NCBI GenBank assembly: GCA_026993265.1
Contig: JALWTY010000175.1
Coordinates: 1-35,685, forward strand
Source: Desulfobacterales bacterium
GTDB taxonomy: Bacteria > Desulfobacterota > Desulfobulbia > Desulfobulbales > JAJRZW01
Length of the DNA stretch: 35,685 bases
Direction of reading: 5' to 3'
This document shows, one piece after another, positions 1-21,202 of the stretch. The notes under the pieces were generated by a model that had not been told where the DNA came from, did not search any database, and saw only the letters and a list, made by a program, of their open reading frames with translations. The position numbers and the translations under genes were made by a program. How positions within the stretch are numbered: position 1 is the stretch's first letter; every line of letters begins with the position of its first letter.

Positions 1-80
1 CAAAAGCAGAAAGGCAAAAATATCGCAAGGTTAAACGAGGTATTGCCTTCAGTATCCAGGCAGTTTTTACGATGCCGTCA
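1..80 (+). repeat. Right part of a long-form TGA...TCA dispersed repeat (family 1), cut by the window edge
   Basis: Heptad A-tract array CAAAA GCAGAAA GGCAAAA ATATCG and right end TTTTTACGATGCCGTCA, colinear with the copies at 3352, 9009 and 21065. Confidence 0.75.
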
Positions 81-81
81 A

Positions 82-238
82 TGATGGACTCGTAACAACG
101 GGTCCATCATCCGCCGCAGGACGCGGAGGCGAAATTGCGCTGTTTGAAAAACTGCGTAATTTCGAGAGGAAAGCCGAAGCTACGCTTTGGCTTTCCGTTG
201 AGTAACAACGGCAGGAAGCCGTTGTTACGATTTCATCA
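82..238. repeat. Family-1 element variant with 20-bp terminal inverted repeats and internal hairpins
   Basis: TGATGGACTCGTAACAACGG (82-101) vs CCGTTGTTACGATTTCATCA (219-238), 2 mismatches. Internal stems at 130-164, 168-196 and 202-228. Confidence 0.8.
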
Positions 239-270
239 TCAATTGTCAGGTAAAAATATAAAGGACAGAG

Positions 271-1005
271 GTGCGAACATTGCGGGAAGTAATAAGGAAT
301 CTCGTGCAGTTGCAGGCGGTTGATCTTGAGATAAAGAAGATCGACGAGGAACTGGCCGCGGCCAGCTCCGAGCTTGAAGCCATGCGCAAAAGCGTCGCCG
401 ACCACCAGGAGGCCATTGCCGAATACACCGCCAGGCTTGAGGAGGGCGAGGCCCGCCGCAAGGAGCTCGAGGCTGCGGTGGAAGAGGCCCAGGCCATGAT
501 CAAGGACCGGCAGAACAAGCTGATGAGCGTCCAGACCAACCGGGAGTACCAGTCCCTGCTCAAGGAGATCGACGACGCCAAGGCCGCCAACAAGGAGCGC
601 GAGGACGAGATCGTCCGGATCCTTGAGGAGGCCGAGTACGTCCAGGCCCGGCTGGACGAGCGCCGCGAGGTCTGCGAAAAGGAGGAGAAGGCCCTGGCCG
701 CGGCCGAGAAGGAGGCGGTGGACAAGGAGAAGAAGCTGAACGGGTCTCGCGAGAAGATCCTCAAGAAGCGGGATGCCGCAGCCAAAAAACTCGACGAGAA
801 ACGCCTCGGCCGCTACGAGAAGATCCGCGAGGTCCGCGACGGGGTCGCGGTGGTCGGGGTGAGGGACGGGGTATGCTACGGCTGTTACATGAACGTGCCC
901 CCGCAGCTCTACAACAACCTGCTCAAGGAGGACGCCCTGCTCTCCTGCCCCACCTGCAACCGGATGATATACTACATGCCCGAGCCCGAGACCACGGAAG
1001 GGTAG
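271..1005 (+). CDS. C4-type zinc-ribbon coiled-coil protein (DUF164/CT398-like)
   Basis: Long coiled coil (LQAVDLEI...EYQSLLKEI) and C-terminal CYGC...CPTCNR zinc ribbon. Start is GTG271 or TTG280. Confidence 0.9.
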   Translation: MRTLREVIRNLVQLQAVDLEIKKIDEELAAASSELEAMRKSVADHQEAIAEYTARLEEGEARRKELEAAVEEAQAMIKDRQNKLMSVQTNREYQSLLKEIDDAKAANKEREDEIVRILEEAEYVQARLDERREVCEKEEKALAAAEKEAVDKEKKLNGSREKILKKRDAAAKKLDEKRLGRYEKIREVRDGVAVVGVRDGVCYGCYMNVPPQLYNNLLKEDALLSCPTCNRMIYYMPEPETTEG

Positions 1006-1010
1006 GGTGA

Positions 1011-1607
1011 GTGAATCCGTTACGGTCACAATCGTATTCCCGGGTGCTTGCCGCCCTGGCGGAAAACCTTGGCGACGCCGAGATCCGGGCCGCGGTTCCG
1101 GATGCTGATCCGGCTGAAGTGAGGAAAATCCTGCGGGAGCTGGCCGGAAGGTTCCGGCCGGCGGTGGAGGGGGACAGCCGCAGTGCTGCTGACGCGGTCC
1201 CTGACGCCGCGGTCCTGTTCACCGACGGCGCAAGCCGCGGCAACCCCGGCGAGGCCGGGGCCGGGGCGGTGCTCACCGGGCCGGACGGCCGGGAGATCGC
1301 GTCCGGGCGCTGGTATCTCGGCCGGGTCACCAACAACGCGGCCGAGTACCTGGCCCTGATCCACGGCCTGGAAGAGGCCGCGGCCCGGGGGATAAAAAGA
1401 CTCGAGGTCCGCATGGACTCGGAACTGGTGGTCAGGCAGCTCAACGGCCGGTACCGGGTGAAGGACGCGGGTCTGAAGAAACTTTTCAGTCAGGTGCAGG
1501 AGTTGCGGCAGCGTTTCAGCCGGATTACCTTTACCCATGTGCGGCGGGAACAGAACCGCCGCGCCGACCGGCTCGCCAACGAGGCCATCGACCGGAAGGG
1601 CCGGTGA
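1011..1607 (+). CDS. rnhA: Ribonuclease HI (archaeal/Rv2228c-like type) with a short N-terminal extension
   Basis: Motifs FTDGASRGNPG, TNNAAEY, DSELVVRQ, HVRREQNRRADRLAN. Confidence 0.92.
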   Translation: MNPLRSQSYSRVLAALAENLGDAEIRAAVPDADPAEVRKILRELAGRFRPAVEGDSRSAADAVPDAAVLFTDGASRGNPGEAGAGAVLTGPDGREIASGRWYLGRVTNNAAEYLALIHGLEEAAARGIKRLEVRMDSELVVRQLNGRYRVKDAGLKKLFSQVQELRQRFSRITFTHVRREQNRRADRLANEAIDRKGR

Positions 1608-1696
1608 CAGACGCAATTTCCGCGACGCGGATGGCTAAGCAGAAATTGCGATTGCAAGGAGTCAGCGTGGAGCGAAAGCGAAAAATATCCGGAAAG

Positions 1697-2047
1697 GCGC
1701 AGTGGCTGCGTGGCCGCTGCCTGCCCGCGCAGGCAGAGGAAAGTCCGAACTCCGCAGGGCAGGATGGTTCGTAACGCGAACGCCGGGCGACCGGGGGAAA
1801 GTGCCACAGAAAAGATACCGCCCCTTTCGAGGGGTAAGGGTGAAATGGCGAGGTAAGAGCTCACCGCTTTCATGGCGACATGAAAGGCATGGCAAACCCC
1901 ATCCGGAGCAAGACCAAATAGGGAGACGTTCGAGGGCGGCCCGTCCGATGTCTCCGGGTAGGTCGCAGGAGGGGCCGGGCGACCGGTCTCCAAGATAAAT
2001 GGCCACACCCCTTTGGGGCACAGAATTCGGCTTACAGGTCGCTGCGT
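1697..2047 (+). ncRNA. rnpB: RNase P RNA, bacterial class A
   Basis: GAGGAAAGTCCGAACTC, GAAAGTGCCACAGAAA, GGTAAGAGCTCACC, GGCAAACCCCATCCGGAGCAAG, ACAGAATTCGGCTTAC. P1 pairing GCGCAGTGGC/GTCGCTGCGT. Ends approximate. Confidence 0.97.
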
Positions 2048-2062
2048 CTTTCCGGGTATTTT

Positions 2063-2198
2063 TGATGGCGCCGCAGAAATTGCGATCTGCGTGTCACAGC
2101 GGGGTCGCGCAATACTCGGCGTACCTGAACCCCTGCATTCCTTGTGATCCTTCGCTGCCTGTCCATGGGGCATGGCTGCGGTTTTTTACGGATTCCCA
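2063..2198. repeat. Probable degenerate family-1-like element between rnpB and ispDF
   Basis: Left TGATGGCGCCGCAGAAA and right TTTTTTACGGATTCCCA resemble the family ends. 2064-2086 matches 1630-1652 at 20/23. Confidence 0.45.
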
Positions 2199-3418
2199 TG
2201 GCCGATATAAAAGAACTCACCGTGGCCGCGGTCATTCCTGCCGGCGGGGCCGGTCTGCGCATGGGCGCGGACCGGCCCAAGCAGTTTCTGCCCCTAGCCG
2301 GGGCGCCGCTGCTTGCGCGGACAGTGGCGGTGTTCGCGGCGATGGAGGAGATAAGCGAGGTGGTGGTGGCGCTTCCGGCCGCCCATCTCGATGAGGGGCG
2401 GCGGCTGCTCGCCGGTATTCCCGGTCTGCGCCTGGTCACGGGCGGCGTTACCCGGCAGGAATCGGTGGCCCGCGGCCTTGCCGCGCTGGATGACAGGGTT
2501 GATGTCGTCCTGGTCCACGACGGGGCCCGGCCGCTGGTCTCCGCTGAACTGGTGCGCGCGTGCATCGAGGCCGCGGCCGGGGACGGCGCGGCCGTGGCTG
2601 CGGTGCCGGTGGCCGACACCCTGAAGCGGGTGGAAGACGGCCGGATCGTGGCCACGGTGGAGCGCGACGGGCTCTGGCGGGCCCAGACTCCGCAGGCGGC
2701 GCGTCTCTCCCTCTTGCGTCGGGCCATGGCCGCCGCGGACGAGGAAGGCTTCACCGGCACGGACGAGTGTTCGCTCCTCGAGCGCGCCGGCGTTCCGGTG
2801 ACCGTGGTGCCTGGCGCGGAGAGCAACCTCAAGGTGACCAGACCGGAGGACATGATGATAGCCGAAGCCATGCTTGGCCGGGCAGAACCCCCGAGGATCG
2901 GCCACGGTTACGACGCTCACCGTTTCGCCGCCGGCCGCGAACTCGTCCTCGGTGGGGTGCGGATAGACTGGGACCTTGGCCTCGACGGCCATTCCGACGC
3001 CGACGTCCTCTGCCACGCGGTCTGCGACGCCATCCTCGGCGCCCTGGCCGCGGGCGACATCGGCAGCCACTTCCCGGACAGCGATCCCGCCTACCGTGGG
3101 ATATCGAGCCTGAAACTCCTGGAGGAGGTGGCGGCAATGGCCGGGAAGAGGGGCTGGATGGTGGCCGGTCTCGATGCCACTGTCATCGCCCAGGCCCCTA
3201 AGCTTGCGCCCCACATCAGCGCCATGCGTGAAAACCTGGCCAGGAGCGCCGGAATATCCCCGGACCGGGTCAGCGTCAAGGCCACCACCACCGAAAAGAT
3301 GGGGTTCTGCGGCCGTGGCGAAGGCATCGCCGCCCATGCGGTGGTCATGCTTGACCGGCTCGTAAAAGGCCCGCTTTTGCGGCATTTTTACGAGCCGGAA
3401 GGCAAAAGTCAAAAGTAA
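2198..3418 (+). CDS. ispDF: Bifunctional IspD/IspF (MEP cytidylyltransferase / MECDP synthase)
   Basis: IspD motifs AGGAGLRMG..PKQFL, VLVHDGARP, AQTPQ; IspF motifs RIGHGYDAH, GHSDADV, KATTTEKMG. Last 21 aa come from a repeat element. Confidence 0.96.
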   Translation: MADIKELTVAAVIPAGGAGLRMGADRPKQFLPLAGAPLLARTVAVFAAMEEISEVVVALPAAHLDEGRRLLAGIPGLRLVTGGVTRQESVARGLAALDDRVDVVLVHDGARPLVSAELVRACIEAAAGDGAAVAAVPVADTLKRVEDGRIVATVERDGLWRAQTPQAARLSLLRRAMAAADEEGFTGTDECSLLERAGVPVTVVPGAESNLKVTRPEDMMIAEAMLGRAEPPRIGHGYDAHRFAAGRELVLGGVRIDWDLGLDGHSDADVLCHAVCDAILGALAAGDIGSHFPDSDPAYRGISSLKLLEEVAAMAGKRGWMVAGLDATVIAQAPKLAPHISAMRENLARSAGISPDRVSVKATTTEKMGFCGRGEGIAAHAVVMLDRLVKGPLLRHFYEPEGKSQK

Positions 3419-3496
3419 AAAGTCAAAAGTATCGGTAGGTTACGAATCAGGCATTTTGTGCCTTCGGTGCTGTCCCGGGTTTTTACGAGGCCATCA
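3352..3496. mobile_element. Long-form family-1 MITE-like element, 145 bp, inserted in the 3' end of ispDF
   Basis: Ends TGACCGGCTCGTAAAA / TTTTTACGAGGCCATCA. Exact direct repeat TCATGCTTGA at 3345-3354 and 3494-3503. Confidence 0.8.
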
Positions 3497-3516
3497 TGCT
3501 TGAGGGGTTTAGGGAC

Positions 3517-4065
3517 TTAGGGGGCGGTGGCCCCGTAGCTTGCGATTTTGCTGTGGATCGCCCCGCCCGGGGCAAGGCGGCTCTCGTAGAGGTGGAAACG
3601 CTCCACGGTGAAGGCCGGGCTGGCAAGGCCGCCGTGGAGGGCGAGGAAGTCGCGCACCTGCCTGGTGACCGGTCTCTTGAGCCTTGCGAGGGTGAGGTGG
3701 GGGTGATACCTTCTTCCCTCCGGCGCGATCCCGGCCCGGTTGACCAGGCGGGTCTCGATCCTTGCCTGGAGGGCGAAGAGTTCCTCCGACCTGGCCAGCC
3801 CGGCCCAGAGAATCCGGGGCATGCCCCTGGGCGGGAAGACGCCGCAGCCGGCAAGGGAGATGGAGAAGGGCGCGAACTGGAGTTCGCGCAGGACCTCGTC
3901 GATCCTCCTGGTGGTGAGCCGGTCCACCTCGCCGATGAAGCGCAGGGTCAGGTGGATCTGTTCCTCCGGGGTCCAGCGGACTCCTTTCAGCCCGAAACAG
4001 ATGCGGGCCAGGCCGGCGCGGATGTTGTCCGGCGGATCGATGGCGATGAAGAGACGGTCGAGCAT
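3517..4065 (-). CDS. thpR: RNA 2',3'-cyclic phosphodiesterase (2H family, LigT/ThpR)
   Basis: RLFIAI start and two HxT motifs (HLTLRFIG, HPHLTLAR). Start at ATG4065. Confidence 0.93.
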   Translation of the reverse strand: MLDRLFIAIDPPDNIRAGLARICFGLKGVRWTPEEQIHLTLRFIGEVDRLTTRRIDEVLRELQFAPFSISLAGCGVFPPRGMPRILWAGLARSEELFALQARIETRLVNRAGIAPEGRRYHPHLTLARLKRPVTRQVRDFLALHGGLASPAFTVERFHLYESRLAPGGAIHSKIASYGATAP

Positions 4066-4089
4066 GGCAGGCCTGCCGAAAGGGATGAG

Positions 4090-4773
4090 ATGACCGGAAA
4101 GATCTGTGTCTCCATAGCCGCGGCCACCCCGGCGGAGGTGGCGTCCGCGGCCGCGGCCGCGGCCTCGGCCGACGTGATCGAGGTGCGCCTCGACGCCCTC
4201 GCCTCCCGGGTGAGTATAGACGATTTCGCCGCCGCCGGAAACGGGGGCCGCGAGCTCCTCTTCACCAACCGGCCCCCCTGGGAAGGCGGCGGCTTCTCCG
4301 GCAGCGAGGAGGAGCGGACCGCGCCCCTGATCGAGGCGGCGGGCCGCGGGTTCTGGGCCGACATCGAGCTTTCCGCCCCGGAGGCGAGCCGCCGGGCCGT
4401 GATCGGGGCCGCGGCCCCGGACGCCAGGGTGATCGTATCCTGGCACGACTTCTCATCCACCCCGGACCCGCGGGAGCTTTCCGCCATCCTGGCCCGGATG
4501 GCCGAGAGCGGCGCCCATGTGGGCAAGATCGTGACCACGGCCCACGGCCCGAACGATGTCCTGCGGGTGTTGTCCCTGCTGGAAGAGGCCGCGGCCCGGG
4601 ATTTTCCCCTGATCGCCTTCTGCATGGGCGAGGCGGGCCGGATAAGCCGGGTGGCCACCCTGTTCCTCGGCGGTTTCATGAGCTACGTTGCCCCGGACGA
4701 GGGCGGCGGGGCCACCGCGCCGGGGCAGCTCACCCTTTCCGCCATGCGGCGGATCATCGGGGAGATGGCATGA
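4090..4773 (+). CDS. aroD: Type I 3-dehydroquinate dehydratase
   Basis: ICVSI, IEVRLD, LFTNRPPWEGG, IVSWHDF, KIVT, MGEAGRISR, APGQ. Confidence 0.93.
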   Translation: MTGKICVSIAAATPAEVASAAAAAASADVIEVRLDALASRVSIDDFAAAGNGGRELLFTNRPPWEGGGFSGSEEERTAPLIEAAGRGFWADIELSAPEASRRAVIGAAAPDARVIVSWHDFSSTPDPRELSAILARMAESGAHVGKIVTTAHGPNDVLRVLSLLEEAAARDFPLIAFCMGEAGRISRVATLFLGGFMSYVAPDEGGGATAPGQLTLSAMRRIIGEMA

Positions 4774-6853: not shown

Positions 6854-6883
6854 ACCTGAATCCGTGAGCGGCGGCGGTTCAGG
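6853..6883. repeat. Family-2 short repeat (CCTGAATYCGTGAG) forming a hairpin between convergent aroA and PilZ genes
   Basis: AACCTGAATCCGTGAGCGGCGGCGGTTCAGG. Related cores at 9167, 28563 and 29287. Confidence 0.6.
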
Positions 6884-7241
6884 CCTTGCCGTTCTCGTCG
6901 TTGAAGGCGCGGAGGTAGCGCCGCAGGACGCGGCGGTCGTTGTCGGTCATCTCGAGGAACTCGATCCCGGCGCAGCACTTTTCCGCGTCGGTGCGGCAGC
7001 ATTCGGAATGGGTGACCCGGCCCTTGATCTCGACCAGGTCGTCGTCGAGGCCGAGGGTGATGAGCATCATCTGTCCCGGCGGGATTTCCATATGAGTCTC
7101 GAGCAGGATGCCCTTCTCGCTGACGTTCAGGGTCCTGGCCATGGCCCGGTTGTAGGGCTTGCCCTCCGGGTCGAGCAGGACGTAGTCCAGGAGGTTCAGG
7201 CTCGGCTTCCTTTCGCTCTCCCTCTTGTCGGCTCCGCTCAT
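6879..7241 (-). CDS. Stand-alone PilZ domain protein
   Basis: RxxxR (RESER) and D/NxSxxG (NVSEKG) c-di-GMP motifs; AGIEF near the end. Confidence 0.9.
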   Translation of the reverse strand: MSGADKRESERKPSLNLLDYVLLDPEGKPYNRAMARTLNVSEKGILLETHMEIPPGQMMLITLGLDDDLVEIKGRVTHSECCRTDAEKCCAGIEFLEMTDNDRRVLRRYLRAFNDENGKA

Positions 7242-7300
7242 ATACCCTTTTCTCCGCTGTTGGTCTTTCCTTGTCCTGCCCTGTAGTTAAAAACTTCCTA

Positions 7301-7329
7301 AAATTAGCGGCAATGGCCTGATTTTGCAA
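7301..7329 (-). promoter_or_regulatory. Candidate sigma70 promoter for the PilZ gene
   Basis: TTGCAA-N17-TAATTT on the minus strand in an AT-rich intergenic region. Confidence 0.4.
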
Positions 7330-7384
7330 GTTCCATCTCCATGAAATCGCGGGCGTTCGGGAACGGGCCTGGTGCAAGGGGATG

Positions 7385-8980: not shown

Positions 8981-9008
8981 GGCAAGTTCCGTTTGCAGGT
9001 GGCAGGGT

Positions 9009-9102
9009 CGGAAGGCAAAAGTTAAAAATCAAAAGTATCGGCAGGTTACGAATCATACATCCTGTGCCGCAGGAACTGTTCCGGTTTTTTACGAATACAT
9101 CA
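9009..9102. repeat. Left-truncated long-form family-1 element
   Basis: CGGAAGGCAAAAGTTAAAAATCAAAAGTATCGG..GGTTACGAATCA..TGTGCC..CCGGTTTTTTACGAATACATCA, colinear with 3396-3496. Confidence 0.8.
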
Positions 9103-9116
9103 TGTTATGGGGGAAA

Positions 9117-9164: not shown

Positions 9165-9315
9165 TAAACCTGAATTCGTGAGAGTTCGGGAGCGGGCCGC
9201 ATGCAAGGAGGCAACGATGTTGATTGTGCTTCGGTGTAGCAACGAGCCGCCCCCCTCGGACAGACGAGTTTTCTGACGCGTCAGGCGCGGCTCCCTTATC
9301 CGGAAGCCGCCGAAG

Positions 9316-10092
9316 ATGCCTCAGGACCAGTTACGAGACTATCATAACAAGGGAGCGTCCATCAAAGCCATGCTTCCCGCCGCCCAGGAAGAAGAGCTTT
9401 TCCGCGCCTGCCGGGTGCTGTTCGGCGACGGACTCAACCTGTCCAGGGAATTTCTCGATTACATCCAGTGGTCCGGGGTCAAGAGCGCCTACCGCCGCAG
9501 GGTGCACGAGTTTCACCCTGACAAGTCCGGCGGCAACAGCGATGATTTCATCGCCCTGCAGCGCGCCTATGAGGAACTGGGCGAATTCCTCGCCGCCCGC
9601 AAGAAAGGAGAGCGGGCCGGCAAGACGTCTGCCGCCGGGAAAGATAACGGAAACAGGCGGCCCGGCAGGCGCAACGGCGGGGGCGGCCGTGACAACCCGC
9701 GCTTGCCGCGGCGGCCCCTGCTTCTTGGTCACTATCTCTACTATTCCGGCCTGATCGACTGGCGCACCATTGTCCGCGCCCTGGTGTGGCAGCGGCAGAA
9801 CCGGCCCCGCCTGGGTGAGATTGCCCGCGAGGCGGGAATGCTCTCCGCAGAACAGGTGCGGACCATCCTCTCCCGCCGCCGGACCCTCGAGCCCTTCGGC
9901 GCCGCCGCGGTCAAGCTCGGCCTTCTCGACCGCGGCCAGGTGGATGAACTGCTACGGCGGCAGCGTCTTATGCAGCGGCGGTTCGGGGAGTACTTCGTGG
10001 AGAAGGGGATTTTTTCACGGGAAGAGATGCTCCGGCTCGTCATCGGGCTTGAGCGCCACAACGCCCTGGCCCGTAACGGCCGATCCCGGTAG
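9316..10092 (+). CDS. J-domain (HPD) protein with C-terminal MshEN-like repeats
   Basis: VKSAYRRRVHEFHPDK...FIALQRAYEEL J domain; four (R/L/P)(L/F)Gxxxxx.G repeats. Start is ATG9316 or ATG9370. Confidence 0.85.
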   Translation: MPQDQLRDYHNKGASIKAMLPAAQEEELFRACRVLFGDGLNLSREFLDYIQWSGVKSAYRRRVHEFHPDKSGGNSDDFIALQRAYEELGEFLAARKKGERAGKTSAAGKDNGNRRPGRRNGGGGRDNPRLPRRPLLLGHYLYYSGLIDWRTIVRALVWQRQNRPRLGEIAREAGMLSAEQVRTILSRRRTLEPFGAAAVKLGLLDRGQVDELLRRQRLMQRRFGEYFVEKGIFSREEMLRLVIGLERHNALARNGRSR

Positions 10093-10097: not shown

Positions 10098-11885
10098 GTG
10101 ATCTACGCCAATCTCATAGGGCTGATGGTGGTGATCCTCGTCCTTTCCACCGGCGGGATTCCGGCCATGCCGCAGCTCCCTCCCGTCCTGACCGCCGCCG
10201 TGGTCGCCGGCAAGTTCGTCCTCTTCCTGTTGTCGGGCCGGGTCATGGTCCGCAGGACGCCGGTGTCGCCTTCCGGTTATTCCCGGCTGCTGGTCCGCCT
10301 TAACCTTGCCGCCATAGTATTTTTTGCCGTTGACATCTATCTCCTCGCCATAAAACGTTTTTTCGCCGCCCTGCCTCTGGCCGCGGCCTTTCCCGCCGTG
10401 GCCGATCTGGCCGGGATAATCTTTTTTCATTTCTACCTCATAGCCGCATGGTGGCTGGCCATGCCCCTGTACCGGCGGGCGTTCCGGACGGAAACAGGGT
10501 TCGCGGCCCATGCGGGCCGGCAGCTTTCGGTCAACCTCTCCCTGATCCTGCCGTGGATCCTTTTCTCCCTGATCTACGACGGTCTCGAGTTTTTGCCGTC
10601 AGGGCCGGTGCGGGATGTGATCGACAGCTGGTGGGGGGGGATGCTGTTCTTTGCCGCGGTGTTTCTGCTCATGGCCGTTTTTTTCCCCATCGTCCTGGTG
10701 CGGCTTTGGGGCTGCCGCAGCCTTCAGCAGGGTCCGGCGCGGCGGGCCATTGAACAGATGCTCGCTGACATGGGGCTCGCCGTCCGCGACATATGCCTGT
10801 GGCCGGTGATGGAGGGCAGGGCGCTCACCGCCGGAATCATGGGCCTGGTGCGCCGGGCCAGGTTCCTGCTCGTTACCCCGGCCCTGCTCGAGAACCTGAC
10901 CGCCGAGGAGCTCCGCGCCGTGGTTGCGCACGAGTACGGCCATGTCCGTTACCGGCACCTGTGGCTGTACCTTCTGGTGTTCGCAGGCTTTGCCTTTCTC
11001 GCCCAGGCGCTGATGCCGGTGACGGTGTACTGGCTGCTCGGCACCGACACCTTTTACCGGCTCATCGAGAGTTCCGGCGCCGATCCGGGAGAGATGCTGA
11101 GCTTTCTCGGCAGTGTGCCCATGTTCGTCGTTTTGCTTCTCTACTTCCGCTACCTGTTCGGTTTCTTCATGCGCAACTTCGAACGCCAGGCCGACCTCGC
11201 CGCCCTGGAAGAGACCGGCAGCGGCCGCGTCCTTGCCGCTGTGCTTGAAAAGATCGCCATCCTGGCGGGCAACATCCGCGACGAGGCCAACTGGCATCAC
11301 TTCGGCATCGGCGAGCGGATCGATTTCCTCCTCCGGGCCGAGGCCGACTGCAGGGTGGCGGCCCGTCACCACCTCAAGGTCAGGGCCGCGGTCGCGCTTC
11401 TCGTCCTGGCCATGGCCGCAGGTTTTTTCCTCTACTCCCGGGCCATGCCCGCGGTGGCGCGCACCGACGCGGCCAGATTCAGCGAGGCGGTGGTCAGATA
11501 CCGGATGCGGGTTGAGCCGGACAACCCGGTGTGGATCCAGTCGTACGCCGATTTTCTCCAGGATCGTCACCGCGAGCGGGAGGCCTTGGCCATGTATGAG
11601 CAGGCCCTGGCCCTGGATCCGGACAATCCGGATATCATGAACAACCTGGCCTGGCTGCTGCTCATCTCCCGGGCTCCATGGATAAGGGACGAGAAAAGGG
11701 CGCTGGAGCTTGCCGAAAGGGCCGCGGCCATATCCAGGAAGGGGTACATCCTCGATACCCTGGCCCTGGCGCTTTTTGCCAACGGCCGGCAGGAGGAGGC
11801 GGTCAGGCTCGAGGATGAGGCCATCGCCCTCGATCCCTCCGGGGCCGATTATTACGAGAGCCAGAAGAGACGTTTCGGAGGGTGA
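10098..11885 (+). CDS. Membrane M48 (HtpX/Ste24-like) zinc metalloprotease with C-terminal TPRs
   Basis: Multiple TM segments, AVVAHEYGH, FERQAD, TPR motifs ALALDPDNPDIMNNLAWLL and ILDTLA. Confidence 0.9.
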   Translation: MIYANLIGLMVVILVLSTGGIPAMPQLPPVLTAAVVAGKFVLFLLSGRVMVRRTPVSPSGYSRLLVRLNLAAIVFFAVDIYLLAIKRFFAALPLAAAFPAVADLAGIIFFHFYLIAAWWLAMPLYRRAFRTETGFAAHAGRQLSVNLSLILPWILFSLIYDGLEFLPSGPVRDVIDSWWGGMLFFAAVFLLMAVFFPIVLVRLWGCRSLQQGPARRAIEQMLADMGLAVRDICLWPVMEGRALTAGIMGLVRRARFLLVTPALLENLTAEELRAVVAHEYGHVRYRHLWLYLLVFAGFAFLAQALMPVTVYWLLGTDTFYRLIESSGADPGEMLSFLGSVPMFVVLLLYFRYLFGFFMRNFERQADLAALEETGSGRVLAAVLEKIAILAGNIRDEANWHHFGIGERIDFLLRAEADCRVAARHHLKVRAAVALLVLAMAAGFFLYSRAMPAVARTDAARFSEAVVRYRMRVEPDNPVWIQSYADFLQDRHREREALAMYEQALALDPDNPDIMNNLAWLLLISRAPWIRDEKRALELAERAAAISRKGYILDTLALALFANGRQEEAVRLEDEAIALDPSGADYYESQKRRFGG

Positions 11886-13292: not shown

Positions 13293-14657
13293 ATGGATCA
13301 GGCAGACATAGTCATCATCGGCGCGGGGCTTTCAGGGCTGAGCGTGGCCCATTTCCTTTCCCGCCTGTCGCCGGATCGCAGCGTAATCCTGTTCGAGGGT
13401 TCGTCCCGGCCGGGCGGCGCGGTGCGTTCCTTTGCCAGAGACGGCTACCGGGGTGAGTGGGGGCCGCACGGCTTTCTCGACAACAACCCTTCCAGCCGCA
13501 AGATTCTTGCACACACCGGCCTGGACAAACGGGTCCAGGCCGCGCCGCTCGGCGATTTCAAGCGCTACATCTGCTCCGGAGGCCGGCTCGTGGCCCTGCC
13601 CCAGTCGCCGCCGGCCCTGATGTCCTCGCCGCTTCTTTCCCTTCGGGGCAAGCTGCGCCTGCTTGGCGACCTGTTCATAAAACCAGATCCGGCGGAGCAG
13701 AGCGTGGCCGCCTGGGCCGCCCGCCGTTTCGGCCGTGGGGTTCTGCCGATGGTGGACGCCGCGGTCACCGGCACGTTCGCCGGCGACATGGAACGGCTCT
13801 CCATCGACGCGGTCATGCCCGGCGTGCGGGCCCTGGAGAAGGAGCACGGCTCGGTCCTGCGCGGACTTGTCGGAAAGAAGAAAAAGGGCGGCGGCAGCGG
13901 CCTGCCTTCCATGCTCAACTTTCCTGGCGGCATGGAAGAGTTGATCGACGCCCTGGCCGCGGACCGGAACATAGTCTATGACGCCGCAGCTGTCGCGGTG
14001 CGGCGTGAGGCCTGCGGCTGGACAGTGGAATGCGAAGGCGGGAGCGTCCGGGCCGGAACCGTGGTCTGCGCCCTGCCGGTCAACCGGGCCCTGGCCCTGC
14101 TTTCTTCCCTTTCCCCGCCGCCTGTGCGTGAGATCCCCGAAGCGGTTATCGTGAACGTCCTTTTCGGGGTTGACCGCGGCCGGCTTGAGCTGCCAAAGGC
14201 ATTCGGATATCTGGCCCCGGAGCGGGAGAAACGTTTCGCCCTCGGCGCCATGTTCACCTCCAGCATGTTTCCGGATCGCTGCCCTGGGGACCGGGTCTTG
14301 CTCGAGGTACTGGTGGGCGGCCGCCGTCATCCGGAGCGGGCCGGCATGGACGACGCCGAAATGGTGGCCGCGGTCGGTCGCGACCTTGGCGATATTCTCG
14401 GGTTTGACGGCCGTCCCGATTTTGTCGAGGTGCTGCGGCCAGCTTCCGGAATCCCGCAGATGGAAATGGGCCACACGGCGCTTCTTGCCTGGCGGCGGCA
14501 ACTGGAAGAGACGCAGCCTGGGCTTCTGGTCTGCGGTTTCGGTTGGGATGGAATCGGCATGAACGAGATGATGGCCGCGGCGGAACGGACGGCGCAACGC
14601 ATCGCCGCAGGCGGGGCCGCGGCCGGCGGGCCCGAGTTAAAACCGGTGTACTTCTGA
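13293..14657 (+). CDS. hemG: HemY-type protoporphyrinogen/coproporphyrinogen oxidase
   Basis: IIGAGLSGL FAD motif, GEWGPHGF, FPGGMEELIDAL, FGYLAP, GIPQ, GIGM. Confidence 0.9.
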   Translation: MDQADIVIIGAGLSGLSVAHFLSRLSPDRSVILFEGSSRPGGAVRSFARDGYRGEWGPHGFLDNNPSSRKILAHTGLDKRVQAAPLGDFKRYICSGGRLVALPQSPPALMSSPLLSLRGKLRLLGDLFIKPDPAEQSVAAWAARRFGRGVLPMVDAAVTGTFAGDMERLSIDAVMPGVRALEKEHGSVLRGLVGKKKKGGGSGLPSMLNFPGGMEELIDALAADRNIVYDAAAVAVRREACGWTVECEGGSVRAGTVVCALPVNRALALLSSLSPPPVREIPEAVIVNVLFGVDRGRLELPKAFGYLAPEREKRFALGAMFTSSMFPDRCPGDRVLLEVLVGGRRHPERAGMDDAEMVAAVGRDLGDILGFDGRPDFVEVLRPASGIPQMEMGHTALLAWRRQLEETQPGLLVCGFGWDGIGMNEMMAAAERTAQRIAAGGAAAGGPELKPVYF

Positions 14658-14703
14658 CCGGCTCGTAACAAGCCCGCGATGCGGTCTTTTTACGAGTCCA
14701 TCA
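14655..14703. mobile_element. Short-form family-1 element, 49 bp
   Basis: TGACCGGCTCGTAACAAG...CTTTTTACGAGTCCATCA. Exact direct repeat ACTTCTGACC at 14650-14659 and 14703-14712. Its left TGA is the hemG stop. Confidence 0.8.
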
Positions 14704-14774
14704 CTTCTGACCAAGCCGTCTTCCAGGCGGCACGTGAAAACCTGCGGCGCTCGTTCCGTTTTTTCAACGGGCTG

Positions 14775-14966
14775 TCAGATCCCCGAGCTCCTTATCCACT
14801 TCTGGTGCAGGCGGTTGCGCATGGTCTTTTCCATCATGATCCGGAAACAGTCGGGACAGTATCCGTGCGACACCGGCTCCGGCGGCCTTTTCTCCACCGG
14901 CGGCGCGACGATCCAGACGTCGTCGCCTATCCGGCGGCGCTGGCAGATGCAGCAGACGGTCTTCAT
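14775..14966 (-). CDS. Small putative zinc-binding protein (CxxC...SHGxCPxC)
   Basis: 63 aa with VCCICQ and SHGYCPDC. RBS GGAAGGAG directly upstream, 8 nt after the dnaA stop. Confidence 0.75.
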   Translation of the reverse strand: MKTVCCICQRRRIGDDVWIVAPPVEKRPPEPVSHGYCPDCFRIMMEKTMRNRLHQKWIRSSGI

Positions 14967-14974
14967 TCTCCTTC

Positions 14975-16288
14975 CTACCCTTCTCCGGCAAGTTTGCGGT
15001 CGATGAGTTCCACCTGTTCCCTGATGCTGGTTGAGCGGTTCATCTGCTCGGTGACCGCCCGGACCGCGTGGACCACGGTGGAGTGGTCGCGGTTGAAGGC
15101 GCGGCCGATGGCGGCGAGCCCCTCGTCGGTGTGTTTGCGGGCCAGGTACATGCCGATCTGCCGCGGCAGGGCCACGGCCCGTTTGCGGGTGCGGGATCTG
15201 AGGGTCTGCACCGGAATCCTGAACTGGTCGGCGATGAAGTCGCGGATGGTTTCCGCGGTCATGCGGCGCTGGCGGCCGAGGATGTCCCTGAGCACCGATT
15301 CGACCAGGTTCTGATCCGGTTTCTTCTTCTCCAGGCTTGCTCTGGCCTTGATGGTGGCGATGGCGCTTTCCACCCGGCGGATGTCGCCGGTGAGATCGCG
15401 GGCGAGCATCTCCACCAGCTCTTCGGACAGGGAGAGCCCGCAGTTCTTAGCCTTGCGGCGGACGATGTGGATCCGGGTGAGGCGGTCTGGCGGGTTGATG
15501 GTGGCGATCAGCGCGCTCGACAGCTTTGATTTCAGCTCCGGATCAATGCCGTCGATATCGAGCGGGGCCAGGTTGCCGGTGTAGATGATGCGTTTGCCGC
15601 GTTCGGTCAGGGTGTCTATGGCCTGGACGATTATCTCCTGGCTCTTGGTCCTGCCGCTCAGGGCCGGCAGGTTTTCGAGGAGCAGGATGTCGCAGCCGTG
15701 GTAGGTGCGGTTGAAACTGTCCATGTCGCCGGTACGGATGGACCTGACCATGTCGGCGGTGAACTGGTGCGCGGTGCGGTAGACGATGACCTCGCCCCGC
15801 CGGTTCCTGAGCACGTGGTGGGCCACGGCCTGGGTCAGGTGGCTCTTGCCCAGCCCGTGACCCGCCTTTAGGTACACCGCCTGGCCCAGGCTGGTGTCGC
15901 CGTTGGCGATGGCGTCGCAGGCGGTGCGGGCCATGGCGTTCGACTCGCCGGTCATGAATTCGTCAAAGGTGAAACGGGGATGCAGGGTTCTGACCACCGA
16001 TTCCCTGGCCTCGGGCATGTGGGGCAGGGCCAGCTGGGCGGACGCGGCCCCGCCTTCGTCCGCGGCCCTTATCACAAGCTCGGTTTCGCTGCGGCCGAGT
16101 TCGGTGAGCCTGTTTCTGAGCTCTCTTGCGTAGCGATCCGAGACCCAGCGGGCGAAAAAAGCGTTCTCGGCTGCGAGAACCAGCCGTTCGCGGCTGCTTT
16201 CAAGGCAGACGAGCGGCTTTATCCACAATTCGAATTCGTTTGCCGGAAGACTGCGGCTCAGAGCTTTTTTGATGTTTTCCCAGGCCAT
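14975..16288 (-). CDS. dnaA: DnaA-family replication initiator paralog with degenerate AAA+ motifs
   Basis: LHPRFTFDEF, GLGKSHL, domain IV PRQIGMYLAR...IGRAFNRDHSTVVHA. Start at ATG16288 after RBS GGAAGGGG. No dnaN follows. Confidence 0.9.
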   Translation of the reverse strand: MAWENIKKALSRSLPANEFELWIKPLVCLESSRERLVLAAENAFFARWVSDRYARELRNRLTELGRSETELVIRAADEGGAASAQLALPHMPEARESVVRTLHPRFTFDEFMTGESNAMARTACDAIANGDTSLGQAVYLKAGHGLGKSHLTQAVAHHVLRNRRGEVIVYRTAHQFTADMVRSIRTGDMDSFNRTYHGCDILLLENLPALSGRTKSQEIIVQAIDTLTERGKRIIYTGNLAPLDIDGIDPELKSKLSSALIATINPPDRLTRIHIVRRKAKNCGLSLSEELVEMLARDLTGDIRRVESAIATIKARASLEKKKPDQNLVESVLRDILGRQRRMTAETIRDFIADQFRIPVQTLRSRTRKRAVALPRQIGMYLARKHTDEGLAAIGRAFNRDHSTVVHAVRAVTEQMNRSTSIREQVELIDRKLAGEG

Positions 16289-16429
16289 TCCCCTTCCCTT
16301 TCCTGATGTAATTTTCCCTGGAGGCCTGCGGGCGTTGCGCCTTAGGCCGAATGTCATTTCCCCAAAAGATGTCCCGCTTGCAGACGGCTGGACGGAAAGG
16401 CCGCAGGAAGCGGCGTGTCCGCGGGGCAT

Positions 16430-18344: not shown

Positions 18345-18449
18345 GACATGTTTCCGGTTCGGGTTGGCGGGAGACGCATGGCTTCCCCTCGAAGGGAACA
18401 ATAACGGTAAATCCCTTGCTGTAAAGGGGAAATTGCCTGCGCCTTGCGG

Positions 18450-18478
18450 TTGACAGTGTCCGGGGCTGCCCTTATATA
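18450..18478 (+). promoter_or_regulatory. Sigma70 promoter upstream of feoAB
   Basis: TTGACA-N17-TATATA. Confidence 0.7.
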
Positions 18479-18606
18479 GAGTAGATGCGGCGGTTGCGGC
18501 TCGTGGGCCCGGGTTGAGACTCGGGTCGATTTTTTTTTGCGGCTGCGAACATCTCTTTGCCCGCCGTCGGCAAGAATCCGTATTTCAAGTCAAGCGAGGC
18601 CGGAAT

Positions 18607-18852
18607 TTGAGCGCCAGGAAGATCCTTTTGCGAAACATGGCCCGGGACCAGGCCGGGACGGTCAGCGCCGTCAAGGTGGGCGGCGACCTGGGGCTGCGCA
18701 TCCGGGAGATGGGAATCGTGCCCGGCGCGCGGATAAAGGTCCAGGGCCGGGCGCCGCTCTATGACCCGGTGGCGGTCAAGGTGATGGGCGCGGTGGTGAG
18801 CCTGCGCAACAACGAGGCCGATTACATCGAGGTGGAGGTGGAGGATGGCTGA
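18607..18852 (+). CDS. feoA: Ferrous iron transport protein A
   Basis: RIREMGIVPGARI..RAPLYDPVAV..SLRNNEA. Start probably TTG18607 (or ATG18637). Confidence 0.92.
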   Translation: MSARKILLRNMARDQAGTVSAVKVGGDLGLRIREMGIVPGARIKVQGRAPLYDPVAVKVMGAVVSLRNNEADYIEVEVEDG

Positions 18853-21067
18853 CAGCGCCGGCGCGCGGAATCCGGAGCGTATAGAGATAGCTCTCGCCGG
18901 CAATCCCAACGCCGGCAAGACCACGCTCTTCAACCGCCTCACCGGCGCAAACCAGCACGTGGGCAATTATCCCGGAGTCACGGTTGAGAAAAAGGAGGGC
19001 CTTTGCTCCTTTGACGGCGTCACCGTGTCCGTGGTCGATCTCCCCGGCACCTATTCCCTCACCGCCTACTCCGAGGAGGAGGTGGTGGCCCGCGACTACC
19101 TGGTCAGGAACCGCCCCCAGGCCGTGGTCAACATCGTTGACGCCTCCAACCTCGAGCGCAACCTCTATCTCACCTGTCAGCTCCTCGAGCTGGGGCTGCC
19201 GGTGGTCCTGGCCCTGAACATGATCGACGTCGCCCGCGACCGCGGCATCGAGGTGAATGTGGAAAAGCTGGGCCGCATCCTCGGGGTGCGGGTGGTTCCC
19301 CTGGTGGCCCGCCGCGGCGAGGGGGTGCGGGAGGTTCTTGCCGCCGCCGTGGCCGAGGCCCGCGACCCTTCCCCGCCCAGATCCCGCCCGGTCTCCTATG
19401 GTGACGATCTCGACCGCGCCATTCTCAACCTCGCCGGACTCGTCGAGGAGAAAGGGATCCTCGCCGGAACCTATCCCCCGGCCTGGTTGGCGATGAAGCT
19501 GCTCGAGGGCGACAAACGGGTCCATGAGCAGGTGCGGGATGCGGTGCGCGACGCCGCGGTTCTCGAAACCATTGAACAGGCTGTTTCCTCCCTGGCCGCG
19601 CACCTTTCCGCCACGCTCGACTCAACCCCCGAGGCGGTGATAGCCGATCATCGTTACGGATTTGTCCGCTCGGTGGTCAGGCAGGGGGTGATGGTGCGTT
19701 TGTCCGACGAGGACCGCATCTACGCCTCCGACCGTATTGACCGGGTGGTGACCCACCGGGTGGCCGGGCCGGTGATCATGCTCGCCATCCTCTTTGCCCT
19801 CTACCAATTCACCTTCACCTGGAGCGAGGCCCCGGTCGCCTGGCTCGGCGCCGGGTTCGACTGGCTCGCGGAGACCGCCGGCGACCTGCTGCCCGACGGC
19901 CACCTGAGATCCCTGCTGGTCTCGGGCATCATCCGCGGGGTCGGCGGGGTCTTCGGCTTCGTGCCCATCATCATGTTCATGTTCTTCGGCATCGCCATCC
20001 TCGAGGATTCGGGCTATCTCGCCCGGGTCGCCTTCATGATGGACCGCGTCTTCCGCACCTTTGGCCTGCACGGAAGTTCTGTCATGAGTTTTATCATCTC
20101 CGGCGGCATCGCCGGCGGCTGCGCCGTGCCCGGCGTGCTCGCCACCCGCACCCTGCGTTCGCCCAGGGAGCGGATGGCCACCCTGCTGACCACCCCGTTC
20201 ATGAACTGCGGGGCCAAGATGCCGGTGCTGGCCCTCCTGATATCGGCCTTCTTCACCACCGGCAAGGCGAGGATGATGCTTTTTCTCACCATGATTTCCT
20301 GGGCCGGCGCCCTGCTGGTGGCGCGGCTTCTCAGGAGCACCATCCTCAAGGGGCTGCCGACTCCGTTCGTCATGGAGCTGCCGCCTTACCGGGTGCCGAC
20401 CCTGCGCGGGCTCCTGCTTCATACCTGGGAACGCACCCGCGACTACCTGCGCAAGGCCGGCTCGGTGATCCTGGCCGCTTCGATTCTGATCTGGGCGACC
20501 ATGACCTTTCCGTCCCTTCCCGCGGCCGAGAAAATGGCGTTTGCCGAAAAACGGCAGGCGGTCATGGCCGCGGCCGGGATTGGCGATGCGGCCCAGGAGG
20601 CGCTGCCGGCCGCGGTGAGAGAGGAGATCGCCAGGATCAACGCCGAGGAGGGAGAGGCCGCCCTGGAATACTCCATCGCCGGACGGGTGGGCCGGGCCCT
20701 GGAGCGGCTCAGCCGCCTCTCCGGTTTTGACTGGCGTACCAATATCGCCCTCATGGGCGGGGTCGCGGCCAAGGAGATCATCATCTCCACCCTGGGAACC
20801 GCCTACTCCCTCGGCGAGCTGAACGCCGGTGAAGACCAGCCCCTGGCCGAGGCGCTTAAAAACAGTCCGGGATGGAACCGTGTCTCGGCCTTCAGTCTTA
20901 TCCTCTTTGTCATGTTCTATTCCCCCTGCCTCGCCACCGTGGCCTGCATCATACGGGAGTCCGGATCGTGGCGGTGGGGAGCCTTTGCCATGGGGTTCAA
21001 TACCCTGTTCGCCTTTTTGCTCTCGTGCCTGGTGTACCAGGCCGGGATGTTTCTGGGGCTGGGATGA
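18845..21067 (+). CDS. feoB: Ferrous iron transport protein B
   Basis: GNPNAGKTT, VGNYPGVTVE, DLPGTYSL, LNMID, LEDSGYLAR, FVMELPPYRVP, AAKE. Confidence 0.97.
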   Translation: MADSAGARNPERIEIALAGNPNAGKTTLFNRLTGANQHVGNYPGVTVEKKEGLCSFDGVTVSVVDLPGTYSLTAYSEEEVVARDYLVRNRPQAVVNIVDASNLERNLYLTCQLLELGLPVVLALNMIDVARDRGIEVNVEKLGRILGVRVVPLVARRGEGVREVLAAAVAEARDPSPPRSRPVSYGDDLDRAILNLAGLVEEKGILAGTYPPAWLAMKLLEGDKRVHEQVRDAVRDAAVLETIEQAVSSLAAHLSATLDSTPEAVIADHRYGFVRSVVRQGVMVRLSDEDRIYASDRIDRVVTHRVAGPVIMLAILFALYQFTFTWSEAPVAWLGAGFDWLAETAGDLLPDGHLRSLLVSGIIRGVGGVFGFVPIIMFMFFGIAILEDSGYLARVAFMMDRVFRTFGLHGSSVMSFIISGGIAGGCAVPGVLATRTLRSPRERMATLLTTPFMNCGAKMPVLALLISAFFTTGKARMMLFLTMISWAGALLVARLLRSTILKGLPTPFVMELPPYRVPTLRGLLLHTWERTRDYLRKAGSVILAASILIWATMTFPSLPAAEKMAFAEKRQAVMAAAGIGDAAQEALPAAVREEIARINAEEGEAALEYSIAGRVGRALERLSRLSGFDWRTNIALMGGVAAKEIIISTLGTAYSLGELNAGEDQPLAEALKNSPGWNRVSAFSLILFVMFYSPCLATVACIIRESGSWRWGAFAMGFNTLFAFLLSCLVYQAGMFLGLG

Positions 21068-21202
21068 CCGTCTCGTAAGGCCGCATCGCGGCCTTGCGAG
21101 ACGGAAGGCAAAAGTCAAAAGTTAAAAGGCAAAAGTATCGGTGGGTTGCCAATCAGATATCTTGTGCCTTTTGAGCCCTTCCGGGTTTTTACGAGGCCGA
21201 CA
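21065..21202. mobile_element. Long-form family-1 element, 138 bp, filling the whole feoB-mscS gap
   Basis: TGACCGTCTCGTAAGG hairpin, heptad array, right end TTTTTACGAGGCCGACA. Left TGA is the feoB stop; last A is the first base of the mscS ATG. Confidence 0.8.

What the first reader, a model, noticed from the sequence alone, without database searches (positions are those of the whole stretch)
1..21202. Modular TGA...TCA miniature element family with target duplications at A-N4-TGA sites
Seen: at least 6 related copies (1-80, 82-238, 3352-3496, 9009-9102, 14655-14703, 21065-21202; possibly 2063-2198) share ends of about TGAyyGrCTCGTAA(A/C)A...TTTTTACGAGkCCATCA around different interiors: a bare hairpin (49 bp), a hairpin plus heptad array plus conserved tail (138-145 bp), or a multi-hairpin form (157 bp). 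Two copies have exact 10-bp flanking direct repeats, TCA-tgct-TGA (3345/3494) and A-cttc-TGACC (14650/14703). That is a duplicated 4-nt spacer inside a target that mimics the element's own ends. The 21065 copy is followed by tgtt-TGA but has no matching left spacer. Inference: a non-autonomous mobile element (MITE/REP-like) moved in trans, either by a DDE transposase making 4-bp TSDs at end-like targets or by site-specific recombination through a TCA-N4-TGA core. No mobilising enzyme is in this window.
Basis: partly seen in the sequence, partly recalled or inferred. Interest (0 to 1): 0.8.

Follow-up and report, generated by a model that had tools for sequence, protein, structure and literature searches.

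The report
Miniature transposons from an IS1182-like element
The repeats are real miniature, non-coding transposons that litter this sulfur-bacterium genome; they are cut-down relatives of an ordinary IS1182-type insertion sequence found in related bacteria, so this is a well-documented but ordinary kind of mobile DNA.

Summary
Six of the seven listed copies are members of a genome-wide repeat superfamily, with about 244 nhmmer hits (~27 kb, ~1% of the assembly). 2063-2198 is not a member.

All share a ~15-nt terminal inverted repeat, GA(T/C)(G/C)GnCTCGTAA(A/C)A. The flanking repeats are true target-site duplications, but of 6-7 bp, not 4 bp. 34 of 60 complete elements have perfect ones, against ~1% of shuffled controls.

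The mobilising enzyme is not in this assembly or in its sister genome. It exists in related genomes of the same order: a ~1.89-kb insertion sequence encoding a 579-620-aa IS1182-like DDE transposase. That element has the same inverted repeat and the same 6-bp A-N4-T duplications (11 of 14 loci; 7 of 11 perfect).

The elements are therefore MITEs of an IS1182-related clade. Site-specific recombination and REP/RAYT are rejected. One subfamily is young (median 97% identity).

In the window, insertions sit at gene ends. One supplies the last 21 codons and the stop codon of IspDF.

Verdict: a new member of a known kind, of modest interest.

The parts
1..79 (+). Cut-off subfamily-A copy (heptad array, tail and right inverted repeat) at the contig start; last base is C79
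   Evidence: aligns with the 3353 and 21066 copies; end motif listed
83..237 (+). Complete subfamily-B element (155 nt, five consecutive hairpins). Flanking 6-bp repeats at 77-82 and 238-243 match 5 of 6, and the left one overlaps the last three bases of the neighbouring copy.
   Evidence: nhmmer E=4.9e-56; fold z=-9.6
3353..3495 (-). Complete subfamily-A element (hairpin module, CAAAAGT heptads, tail). Perfect 6-bp duplication ATGCTT at 3347-3352 and 3496-3501.
   Evidence: E=3.3e-44
3353..3418 (+). Element-encoded C-terminal tail (21 codons) and TAA stop of the ispDF reading frame
   Evidence: the YgbB/IspF domain ends at residue 403 (nt 3350-3352), and the ORF runs on to 3418 inside the element
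9006..9101 (-). Subfamily-A copy lacking the hairpin module (profile positions 1-103 of 142)
   Evidence: A related strain's contig carries about 72 extra letters here, partly matching the hairpin module (run X2, record 11 and table 5c).
9253..9343 (-).
14656..14702 (+). Minimal element: two inverted repeats around a GC hairpin (47 nt). Perfect 6-bp duplication ACTTCT at 14650-14655 and 14703-14708. The upstream oxidase gene's stop codon TGA (14655-14657) spans the junction.
   Evidence: The fold is terminator-like on both strands. The sister genome has an uninterrupted site.
21066..21201 (-). Subfamily-A element filling the whole feoB-to-mscS-like intergenic space, with no matching duplication. 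The right end reads GCCGAC instead of GCCATC.
   Evidence: E=1e-34. The sister genome has an unrelated 51-nt spacer here.

Best explanation
The window holds copies of a superfamily of miniature inverted-repeat transposable elements (MITEs). Each is 47-190 nt long and non-coding. Each is bounded by a ~15-nt inverted repeat, GA(T/C)(G/C)GnCTCGTAA(A/C)A.

The elements are moved in trans by a DDE transposase of an IS1182-related clade. That enzyme is encoded by ~1.89-kb insertion sequences with the same inverted repeats in other genomes of the same order. It is not encoded in this assembly.

The enzyme makes cuts staggered by 6 (sometimes 7) bp in AT-rich, weakly palindromic targets, (C/T)|A-N4/5-T|(G). 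Repair of those cuts gives the flanking duplication. Because an inserted element's own junction recreates half of that target, new copies often land directly beside old ones. That may be how mixed, modular interiors arise.

Shown: the inverted repeats, the duplications, the copy numbers, the full-length partner in relatives, and its absence from this assembly.

Inferred: that this particular transposase clade mobilises the copies in this genome, and that staggered cutting follows the usual DDE chemistry.
For: 1. Duplications in this genome. 34 of 60 complete elements have perfect duplications (19 of 6 bp, 15 of 7 bp). Twelve more have one mismatch. Shuffled left/right pairings reach that score in about 1% of trials.

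2. Independent replicate. An unrelated 162-nt element with the same inverted repeat occurs in genome G079, with at least 40 copies at 90-100% identity. 15 of 22 copies examined have perfect duplications (13 of 6 bp, 2 of 7 bp), against 3.7% in the control.

3. Target logo. The first duplicated base is A in 27 of 34, and the last is T in 27 of 34. The base before the duplication is C or T in 30 of 34, and the base after it is G in 23 of 34. The duplications are 76% A+T in a 63% G+C genome.

4. Full-length partner. I fetched 14 loci encoding 579-620-aa IS1182-like proteins from 12 genomes.
- 11 have the inverted repeat (at most 1 mismatch in 14 nt) on both sides of the gene, 1885-1931 nt apart.
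- 7 of those 11 have perfect 6-bp duplications, all ending in T and 6 of 7 starting with A.
- Two further loci have more diverged ends, and one lies on a 2-kb contig without ends.

5. Protein family. The protein has DUF772 + DDE_Tnp_1 + DDE_Tnp_1_6 domains, and its best NCBIfam match is IS1182. A canonical IS1182 transposase in G254 (414 bits, cut-off 270) is also bounded by these repeats.

6. Co-occurrence. Genomes carrying the long transposase include those richest in the repeat: G280 with 228 matches, G326 with 81, G377 with 53 and G073 with 51.

7. Empty site. The sister genome is uninterrupted at the 14656 site.

8. Youth. Subfamily B has a median pairwise identity of 97%.
Against: - No transposase of this clade is in the assembly. 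tblastn with 9 such proteins found no hit at E<=1e-3. The IS1182 model found no match in G000 or in the sister genome G001.
- Only the ~15-17 terminal bases are shared between the MITEs and the full-length elements. Descent is therefore inferred from the ends and the duplication signature, not from internal similarity.
- 7-bp duplications make up 15 of 34 in this genome, but none of the 7 perfect ones at full-length elements.
- 14 of 60 elements have no convincing duplication.
- Contig laying of four public runs showed no contig joining across an element, so no empty allele was seen. Only 15 of 69 joints were displayed.
- The long transposase scores below NCBIfam's IS1182 cut-off (145 against 270 bits).
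Confidence: 0.85

Rival explanations
1. One reading: the element ends are TGA...TCA, and a transposase or a site-specific recombinase acts on a TCA-N4-TGA core, duplicating only the 4-nt spacer.
For: The two window copies with 10-bp repeats can be read this way. The commonest junctions are indeed TC|A...T|GA.
Against: - The supposed element bases vary together with the opposite flank. The first duplicated base is T in 6 and C in 1 of 34. The last is A in 6 and G in 1 of 34. In every case the change appears on both sides.
- 15 of 34 duplications are one base longer.
- Near-identical copies carry different duplicated sequences, which a fixed crossover core cannot give.
Confidence: 0.03
2. REP/REPIN-like palindromic units spread by a RAYT (Y1/HUH) transposase.
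For: The elements are hairpin-rich and mostly intergenic. Many termini form 26-nt palindromes.
Against: - There is no Y1_Tnp match in G000 or G001.
- Variable flanking duplications are present. By my knowledge of the IS200/IS605 and RAYT systems, those enzymes do not make them.
- The same ends bound a DDE transposase gene in relatives.
Confidence: 0.02
3. The elements are moved by another transposase with a 6-bp stagger that is common in the order, the ISNCY_1 type (NF033593).
For: - ISNCY_1 matches at E<=1e-10 occur in 84 of 301 genomes of the order, 25 of them over the cut-off.
- Four of the five identical-scoring copies in G080 were fetched. All four show 6-bp duplications (TASTTA), read by eye.
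Against: - Its inverted repeats are different.
- None of 20 full-length and 7 weaker loci carries the repeat studied here.
- Many repeat-rich genomes (G001, G026, G043, G261, G280) have no ISNCY_1 match.
Confidence: 0.04
4. The repeats are primarily host regulatory modules (bidirectional terminators, protein-binding heptad arrays) kept by selection rather than mobile DNA. Similar multicopy sequences in Geobacter were once read this way.
For: - The hairpin module folds strongly on both strands with flanking A/T runs, and part of it is picked up by the terminator scan.
- Window copies sit at gene ends.
- Aklujkar et al. 2009 (PMC2700814; passages read) interpreted heptanucleotide-repeat families as regulator sites.
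Against: - Duplications, an empty site, a young burst and a transposase-bearing parent all point to mobility.
- The terminator-like scan as a whole is not enriched (24 found against 18.4 +/- 6.4 in shuffles).
- No expression data were examined.
Confidence: 0.03

Closest known systems
IS1182 family insertion sequences (e.g. IS1272 of staphylococci)
   Same: - The full-length partner encodes one DDE transposase with DUF772 + DDE_Tnp_1_6 domains, and its best NCBIfam match is IS1182.
- Its nearest annotated plasmid relatives are named 'IS1182 family transposase'.
- Wan et al. 2017 (PMC5678879; abstract and passages read) report that IS1272 targets inverted-repeat/stem-loop structures, and cite Siguier et al. 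for other IS1182 members targeting palindromes. That fits the weakly palindromic, end-like targets here.
   Different: - The long clade scores 145 bits, below the 270-bit cut-off, and is only 24-27% identical to the canonical IS1182 member in G254.
- It shares 26-35% identity with plasmid relatives.
- It makes regular 6-bp duplications, whereas newly inserted IS1272 copies had none.
- Whether ISfinder already lists this clade could not be checked.
Bacterial MITEs such as Correia/NEMIS (Neisseria), ERIC, RUP (recalled from general knowledge)
   Same: They are short and non-coding, with terminal inverted repeats, target duplications and high copy number. They are mostly intergenic, hairpin-forming, and able to alter gene ends.
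   Different: The inverted repeat is different, the duplication is 6-7 bp, and the likely parent is IS1182-like. Several unrelated interiors share one set of ends.
Multicopy heptanucleotide-repeat sequences of Geobacter metallireducens (Aklujkar et al. 2009, PMC2700814)
   Same: These are intergenic multicopy sequences with tandem heptanucleotide repeats, some paired on opposite strands. One class has the consensus MTYCTGA, which is like the CTTCTGA-type heptads in some copies here.
   Different: They come from a different order, and were interpreted as regulator sites. Their sequences are only in supplementary files, which I could not see, so any relationship is untested.

Membership tests
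MITE (miniature inverted-repeat transposable element) | Short (<~300 nt), without a coding frame of its own | tested here: met
   Elements are 47-190 nt
MITE (miniature inverted-repeat transposable element) | Terminal inverted repeats | tested here: met
   A ~15-nt repeat at both ends of 60 elements. End types are tallied.
MITE (miniature inverted-repeat transposable element) | Target-site duplications of constant length and variable sequence | tested here: met
   34 of 60 perfect at 6-7 bp, against ~1% in the control. Replicated in G079, 15 of 22.
MITE (miniature inverted-repeat transposable element) | Autonomous element with the same ends encoding a transposase | tested here: met
   Met in related genomes only: 11 of 14 loci, plus G254. 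Not found in G000.
MITE (miniature inverted-repeat transposable element) | Empty orthologous or allelic sites | tested here: inconclusive
   There is one clean empty site in the sister genome, at 14656. The 3353 and 21066 sites are too diverged to read. No empty allele was seen in contigs of 4 runs.
IS1182 family (for the full-length partner) | Transposase matches the family model above its curated cut-off | tested here: inconclusive
   The G254 element scores 414 bits, above the 270-bit cut-off. The long clade (G280 copy) scores 145 bits, below it, although IS1182 is still its best match.
IS1182 family (for the full-length partner) | Domain architecture DUF772 + DDE_Tnp_1_6 | tested here: met
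   Precomputed domains of 120 relatives agree.
IS1182 family (for the full-length partner) | Catalogued member or ends in ISfinder | not testable with these tools
   ISfinder cannot be reached. Sources name the protein only 'transposase', 'hypothetical protein' or 'IS5 family transposase'.
REP/RAYT (REPIN) system | Y1 (HUH) transposase in the genome | tested here: not met
   PF01797 gave 0 of 2 genomes of the genus
ISNCY_1-type element | Shared inverted repeats | tested here: not met
Any Rfam RNA family | Match at gathering score | tested here: not met
   Only RNase P RNA and one tRNA in the window

The most novel reading that the evidence does not exclude
The IS1182-like clade may be an uncatalogued, order-wide subfamily with two distinguishing properties. 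First, it makes a fixed 6-bp stagger at short palindromic CA-N4-TG targets. Second, it lands preferentially in the duplication beside an existing copy. This 'self-targeting' would build the modular, multi-hairpin elements. It would also let MITE swarms outlive, or out-assemble, their transposase. The hairpin module would then act as a portable bidirectional terminator and donor of stop codons at gene ends.
Probability: 0.3. Interest if true: 0.45.

Novelty: new member of a known kind. Interest (0 to 1): 0.3.

Why it matters
- It explains about 1% of this genome, and many of its assembly breaks. Many contig ends lie inside subfamily-B copies.
- It ties an order-wide set of orphan repeats to one transposase clade. 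The repeat was found in 208 of 401 genomes searched.
- It gives that clade a defined target and stagger.
- It shows concrete effects on genes, such as a MITE-encoded tail and stop codon on IspDF.
- For annotation, it warns that reading frames running into these elements, and the short hairpin repeats at gene ends, are transposon-derived.
- It does not reveal a new kind of system.

Tried and rejected
Searches for a full-length element in G000:
- End pairs 0.7-3.5 kb apart all enclose ordinary genes: pseudopilins, an AAA ATPase, dapA/dapB/folK, purA/tatC.
- Self-BLAST found no long high-identity repeat. The hits were duplicated rpoB and gyrB fragments.

Transposase families searched:
- PF01609 and PF00665 in G000 alone hit only contig C226. 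That locus holds an IS3-type element inside an IS5-like element whose ends are different.
- In both G000 and G001, PF01797, PF01610, PF00872, PF13358, PF13612 and PF13546 found nothing. PF05598 hit only C226.
- ISNCY_2 gave only weak hits without the repeat.
- rve-type loci of five repeat-rich genomes carry no repeat, and G254 has no rve match at all.
- A Mu/Tn552-like transposase plus ATPase pair on G280:C61 has no matching ends.
- Among the 30 best canonical IS1182 loci, only G254's is bounded by the repeat.

Other pair candidates, in G280, L072 and L145, are ordinary genes. Eight unexplained end matches in G079 are variant or truncated copies of its MITE.

Database and literature searches:
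- BLAST of both element types against plasmids gave no match.
- Literature: no relevant paper holds the end strings (44 unrelated hits, 15 listed). None of the 7 papers found for 'MITE' + 'Desulfobacterales' looks relevant by title or abstract start. The search for 'miniature inverted-repeat transposable' + 'heptanucleotide' gave 2 unrelated papers.
- Supplementary alignments of the Geobacter and Pelobacter genome papers could not be opened.

Other checks:
- Read laying on four runs (contigs only) showed no contig joining across an element. Contigs often stop in the elements, so this is not evidence against empty alleles.
- The idea that the ATG at 3496 in the right duplication is the start of the next gene was dropped. 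The dehydroquinase domain begins about 200 codons later.
- The promoter and terminator scans are not enriched overall.
- Earlier-findings look-ups by sequence found nothing.


Full report
**What is in the window**

They share ends of the form GA(T/C)(G/C)GnCTCGTAA(A/C)A and its reverse complement, around different interiors. Profile HMMs built from genome-wide copies place the window copies as follows:
- Subfamily A at 3353-3495, 9006-9101 (no hairpin module), 14650-14701 (hairpin module only) and 21066-21198.
- Subfamily B at 83-237.

Positions 1-79 are a cut-off A copy at the contig start. 2063-2198 is matched by none of the profiles and is not supported as a member. Rfam finds only RNase P RNA (1698-2050) and one tRNA in the window.

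**Genome-wide census**

The window is contig C175 of a 2.57-Mb assembly with 300 contigs and 63% G+C.
- The 8-mer core of the ends occurs 151 times, against about 20 expected.
- With a stricter end definition there are 273 ends. 122 of them pair into short elements, and 151 are unpaired. Many of the unpaired ends lie within 150 nt of a contig end.
- nhmmer finds 148 hits for subfamily A (53 near full length), 71 for B (33) and 25 for C (14). Together these cover about 27 kb.
- Median pairwise identity is 84% for A, 88% for C and 97% for B, so B spread recently.
- Subfamily B folds into five consecutive hairpins (z=-9.6). The hairpin module of A and the 47-nt minimal form fold as GC stems flanked by A- and T-runs on both strands.

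**The flanking repeats are 6-7-bp target duplications**

For 60 complete elements I compared the bases outside the two ends at every possible offset.
- 34 have perfect repeats: 19 of 6 bp and 15 of 7 bp.
- Twelve more have a single mismatch, and 14 have nothing convincing.
- Random re-pairing of left and right flanks reaches the score of a perfect 6-mer in about 1% of trials.

The reconstructed targets give this logo:

| Position | Counts out of 34 |
|---|---|
| Base before the duplication | C 18, T 12 |
| First duplicated base | A 27, T 6, C 1 |
| Last duplicated base | T 27, A 6, G 1 |
| Base after the duplication | G 23 |

Where the first or last duplicated base is not A or T, the change appears on both sides of the element. 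This shows that these bases are target and not element.

Nine of the 60 elements abut another element's terminus with only the duplication between them. That is far more often than the few hundred ends in 2.57 Mb would allow by chance. The family-B copy at 83-237, beside the A copy ending at 79, is one such case.

**Comparison with relatives**

The sister genome G001 is syntenic but only about 70% identical in DNA.
- At the 14656 site it is uninterrupted: the gene end reads straight through where G000 has the 47-nt element plus a second ACTTCT.
- At 21066 it has an unrelated 51-nt spacer.
- At 3353 the IspDF frame ends five codons after the insertion point.

In G000 the IspF domain ends exactly at nt 3352. 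The frame then runs 21 codons into the element, to a TAA in the heptad array.

The 15-nt end pattern occurs in 208 of 401 genomes of the same order. Counts reach 114+114 matches in one genome. The reversed control pattern gave 9 matches by my count of the table.

A collection-wide scan for the hairpin form returned mostly genomes labelled Desulfobacterales, Desulfobacteraceae, Desulfobulbaceae, Desulfocapsa or Desulfopila. It also returned hits in other phyla.

In G079, a nearly complete genome of another family, a 162-nt element with an unrelated interior has the same ends. It has at least 40 copies at 90-100% identity. 15 of 22 copies examined have perfect duplications, 13 of them of 6 bp.

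**The mobilising enzyme**

Nothing in G000 qualifies. Long end pairs enclose ordinary genes, and there are no long high-identity repeats. The only DDE-family hits are an IS3-type element inserted in an IS5-like element on C226, with different ends. Y1, ISL3, IS256, IS630-type, IS982-type and IS701-type models find nothing in G000 or G001. ISNCY_1 elements are common in the order and make 6-bp duplications, but their ends are different.

Searching DDE_Tnp_1 in five repeat-rich genomes gave the lead.
- In G254, a 502-aa canonical IS1182 transposase (414 bits, cut-off 270) lies between two of these ends, 2,026 nt apart.
- In G280, a 580-aa IS1182-like gene starts 116 nt inside an exact end.

I then fetched 14 loci of this long type (579-620 aa) from 12 genomes.
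- 11 have the repeat on both sides, 1,885-1,931 nt apart.
- 7 of those 11 have perfect 6-bp duplications: AAATGT, AACTTT, TTTCTT, ATTTTT, AAACAT, AATTTT and ATATGT.
- Two more loci have diverged ends, and one contig is too short to include the ends.

The proteins are 50-80% identical to one another and 24-27% identical to the G254 protein. They carry DUF772, DDE_Tnp_1 and DDE_Tnp_1_6 domains, and IS1182 is their best, though sub-threshold, NCBIfam match. Their nearest plasmid-borne relatives, at 26-29% identity, are annotated as IS1182 family transposases.

The protein database holds 4,433 relatives at E<=1e-30 among the 7,998 candidates scored. Sources name them only "transposase", "hypothetical protein" or "IS5 family transposase". 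Most sit on contigs of 1.8-2.6 kb, about the element's own length. This suggests why a binned assembly could lack it.

tblastn with nine of these proteins finds nothing in G000.

**Mechanism**

A DDE transposase of this clade binds the ~15-17-nt ends and joins them to target strands staggered by 6 bp, sometimes 7. Repair doubles the intervening bases. The target is AT-rich and weakly palindromic.

A published study of the IS1182-family member IS1272 reports that it targets inverted-repeat structures. It also cites others for palindrome targeting in the family (PMC5678879; abstract and passages read). That fits the end-like targets and the landing beside existing copies seen here. The steps beyond the sequence signatures are inferred.

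**Rivals**

- Site-specific recombination is excluded by the variable duplications on near-identical copies.
- REP/RAYT is excluded by the duplications, by the absence of a Y1 enzyme, and by the DDE-bearing parent.
- A purely regulatory origin is excluded by the same evidence. Secondary use of the hairpins as terminators is untested, and the consensus scan is not enriched.

**Novelty and limits**

MITEs derived from insertion sequences are a known kind. I found no paper that holds these end strings or describes MITEs in this group. ISfinder and the supplementary alignments of the Geobacter and Pelobacter genome papers could not be consulted.

Earlier notes of this scan describe other MITE families in related genomes, with 4-, 5- and 9-bp duplications. 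None has these ends.

The link between this genome's copies and the transposase clade rests on three things: shared ends, a shared duplication signature and co-occurrence in the order. It does not rest on an enzyme found in this genome.

Noticed in passing
window 1698-2050 (+) and 23323-23396 (+): Bacterial RNase P RNA class A (309 bits) and one tRNA; the only Rfam matches in the window.
   Followed up: no
window 14975-16429 (-): A dnaA gene (DnaA_N, Bac_DnaA and Bac_DnaA_C domains) lies convergent with the oxidase gene. The 47-nt minimal element sits between their 3' ends.
   Followed up: no
G000 contigs C143:16678-16954, C48:~4100-4197, C14:~19130-19228, C245:~3520-3613, C267:~11017-11120: A second, unrelated multicopy sequence begins CAGCCCGTTGAAAAAC. 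It is once nested inside a subfamily-A element, making that copy 277 nt core to core instead of ~130.
   Followed up: no
G000, many copies (e.g. C207:~10450-10549, C285:9238-9362, C258:~7230-7332): Some subfamily-A-like copies carry CTTCTG/CTCCTG-type heptads instead of CAAAAGT heptads, and the number of heptads varies between copies. Their role is unexplained; they may be transposase-binding sites or products of slippage.
   Followed up: partly
G000, e.g. C175:49678-49703 (outside the window), C130:~116-141, C56:17005-17030: There are solo 26-nt palindromes made of two inverted repeats back to back, without clean duplications. They could be minimal elements, deletion remnants or landing sites.
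   Followed up: partly
G000 C226:28850-31560: An IS5-like element (DUF772 + DDE_Tnp_1, with its own different ends) is interrupted by an IS3-family element with two reading frames. These are the only recognisable transposase genes in the assembly.
   Followed up: yes
G000 C64/C85/C17 and C38/C69: Second copies of rpoB and gyrB fragments lie on separate contigs at about 80% DNA identity. This suggests a second related strain or some contamination in the bin.
   Followed up: no
G080:C1 (loci L199-L202): A 1,703-nt ISNCY_1-type insertion sequence occurs in five identical-scoring copies, of which four were fetched. Those four have their own inverted repeats and 6-bp duplications of the form TASTTA.
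   Followed up: partly
window 9005-9014, run X2: A contig of a related population (about 98% identical nearby) carries about 72 extra letters at the left edge of the 9006-9101 copy. Part of the extra sequence matches the hairpin module, so that strain seems to keep the module that the window copy lacks (table 8 record 11 and table 5c).
   Followed up: no
L175 = G280:C61:1-2585: A 442-aa rve-type transposase is followed by an AAA+ ATPase gene (a Mu/Tn552/IS21-like pair) on a short contig. A GATGG...CCATC-like palindrome lies at 41-72 but lacks the CTCGTAA core.
   Followed up: partly
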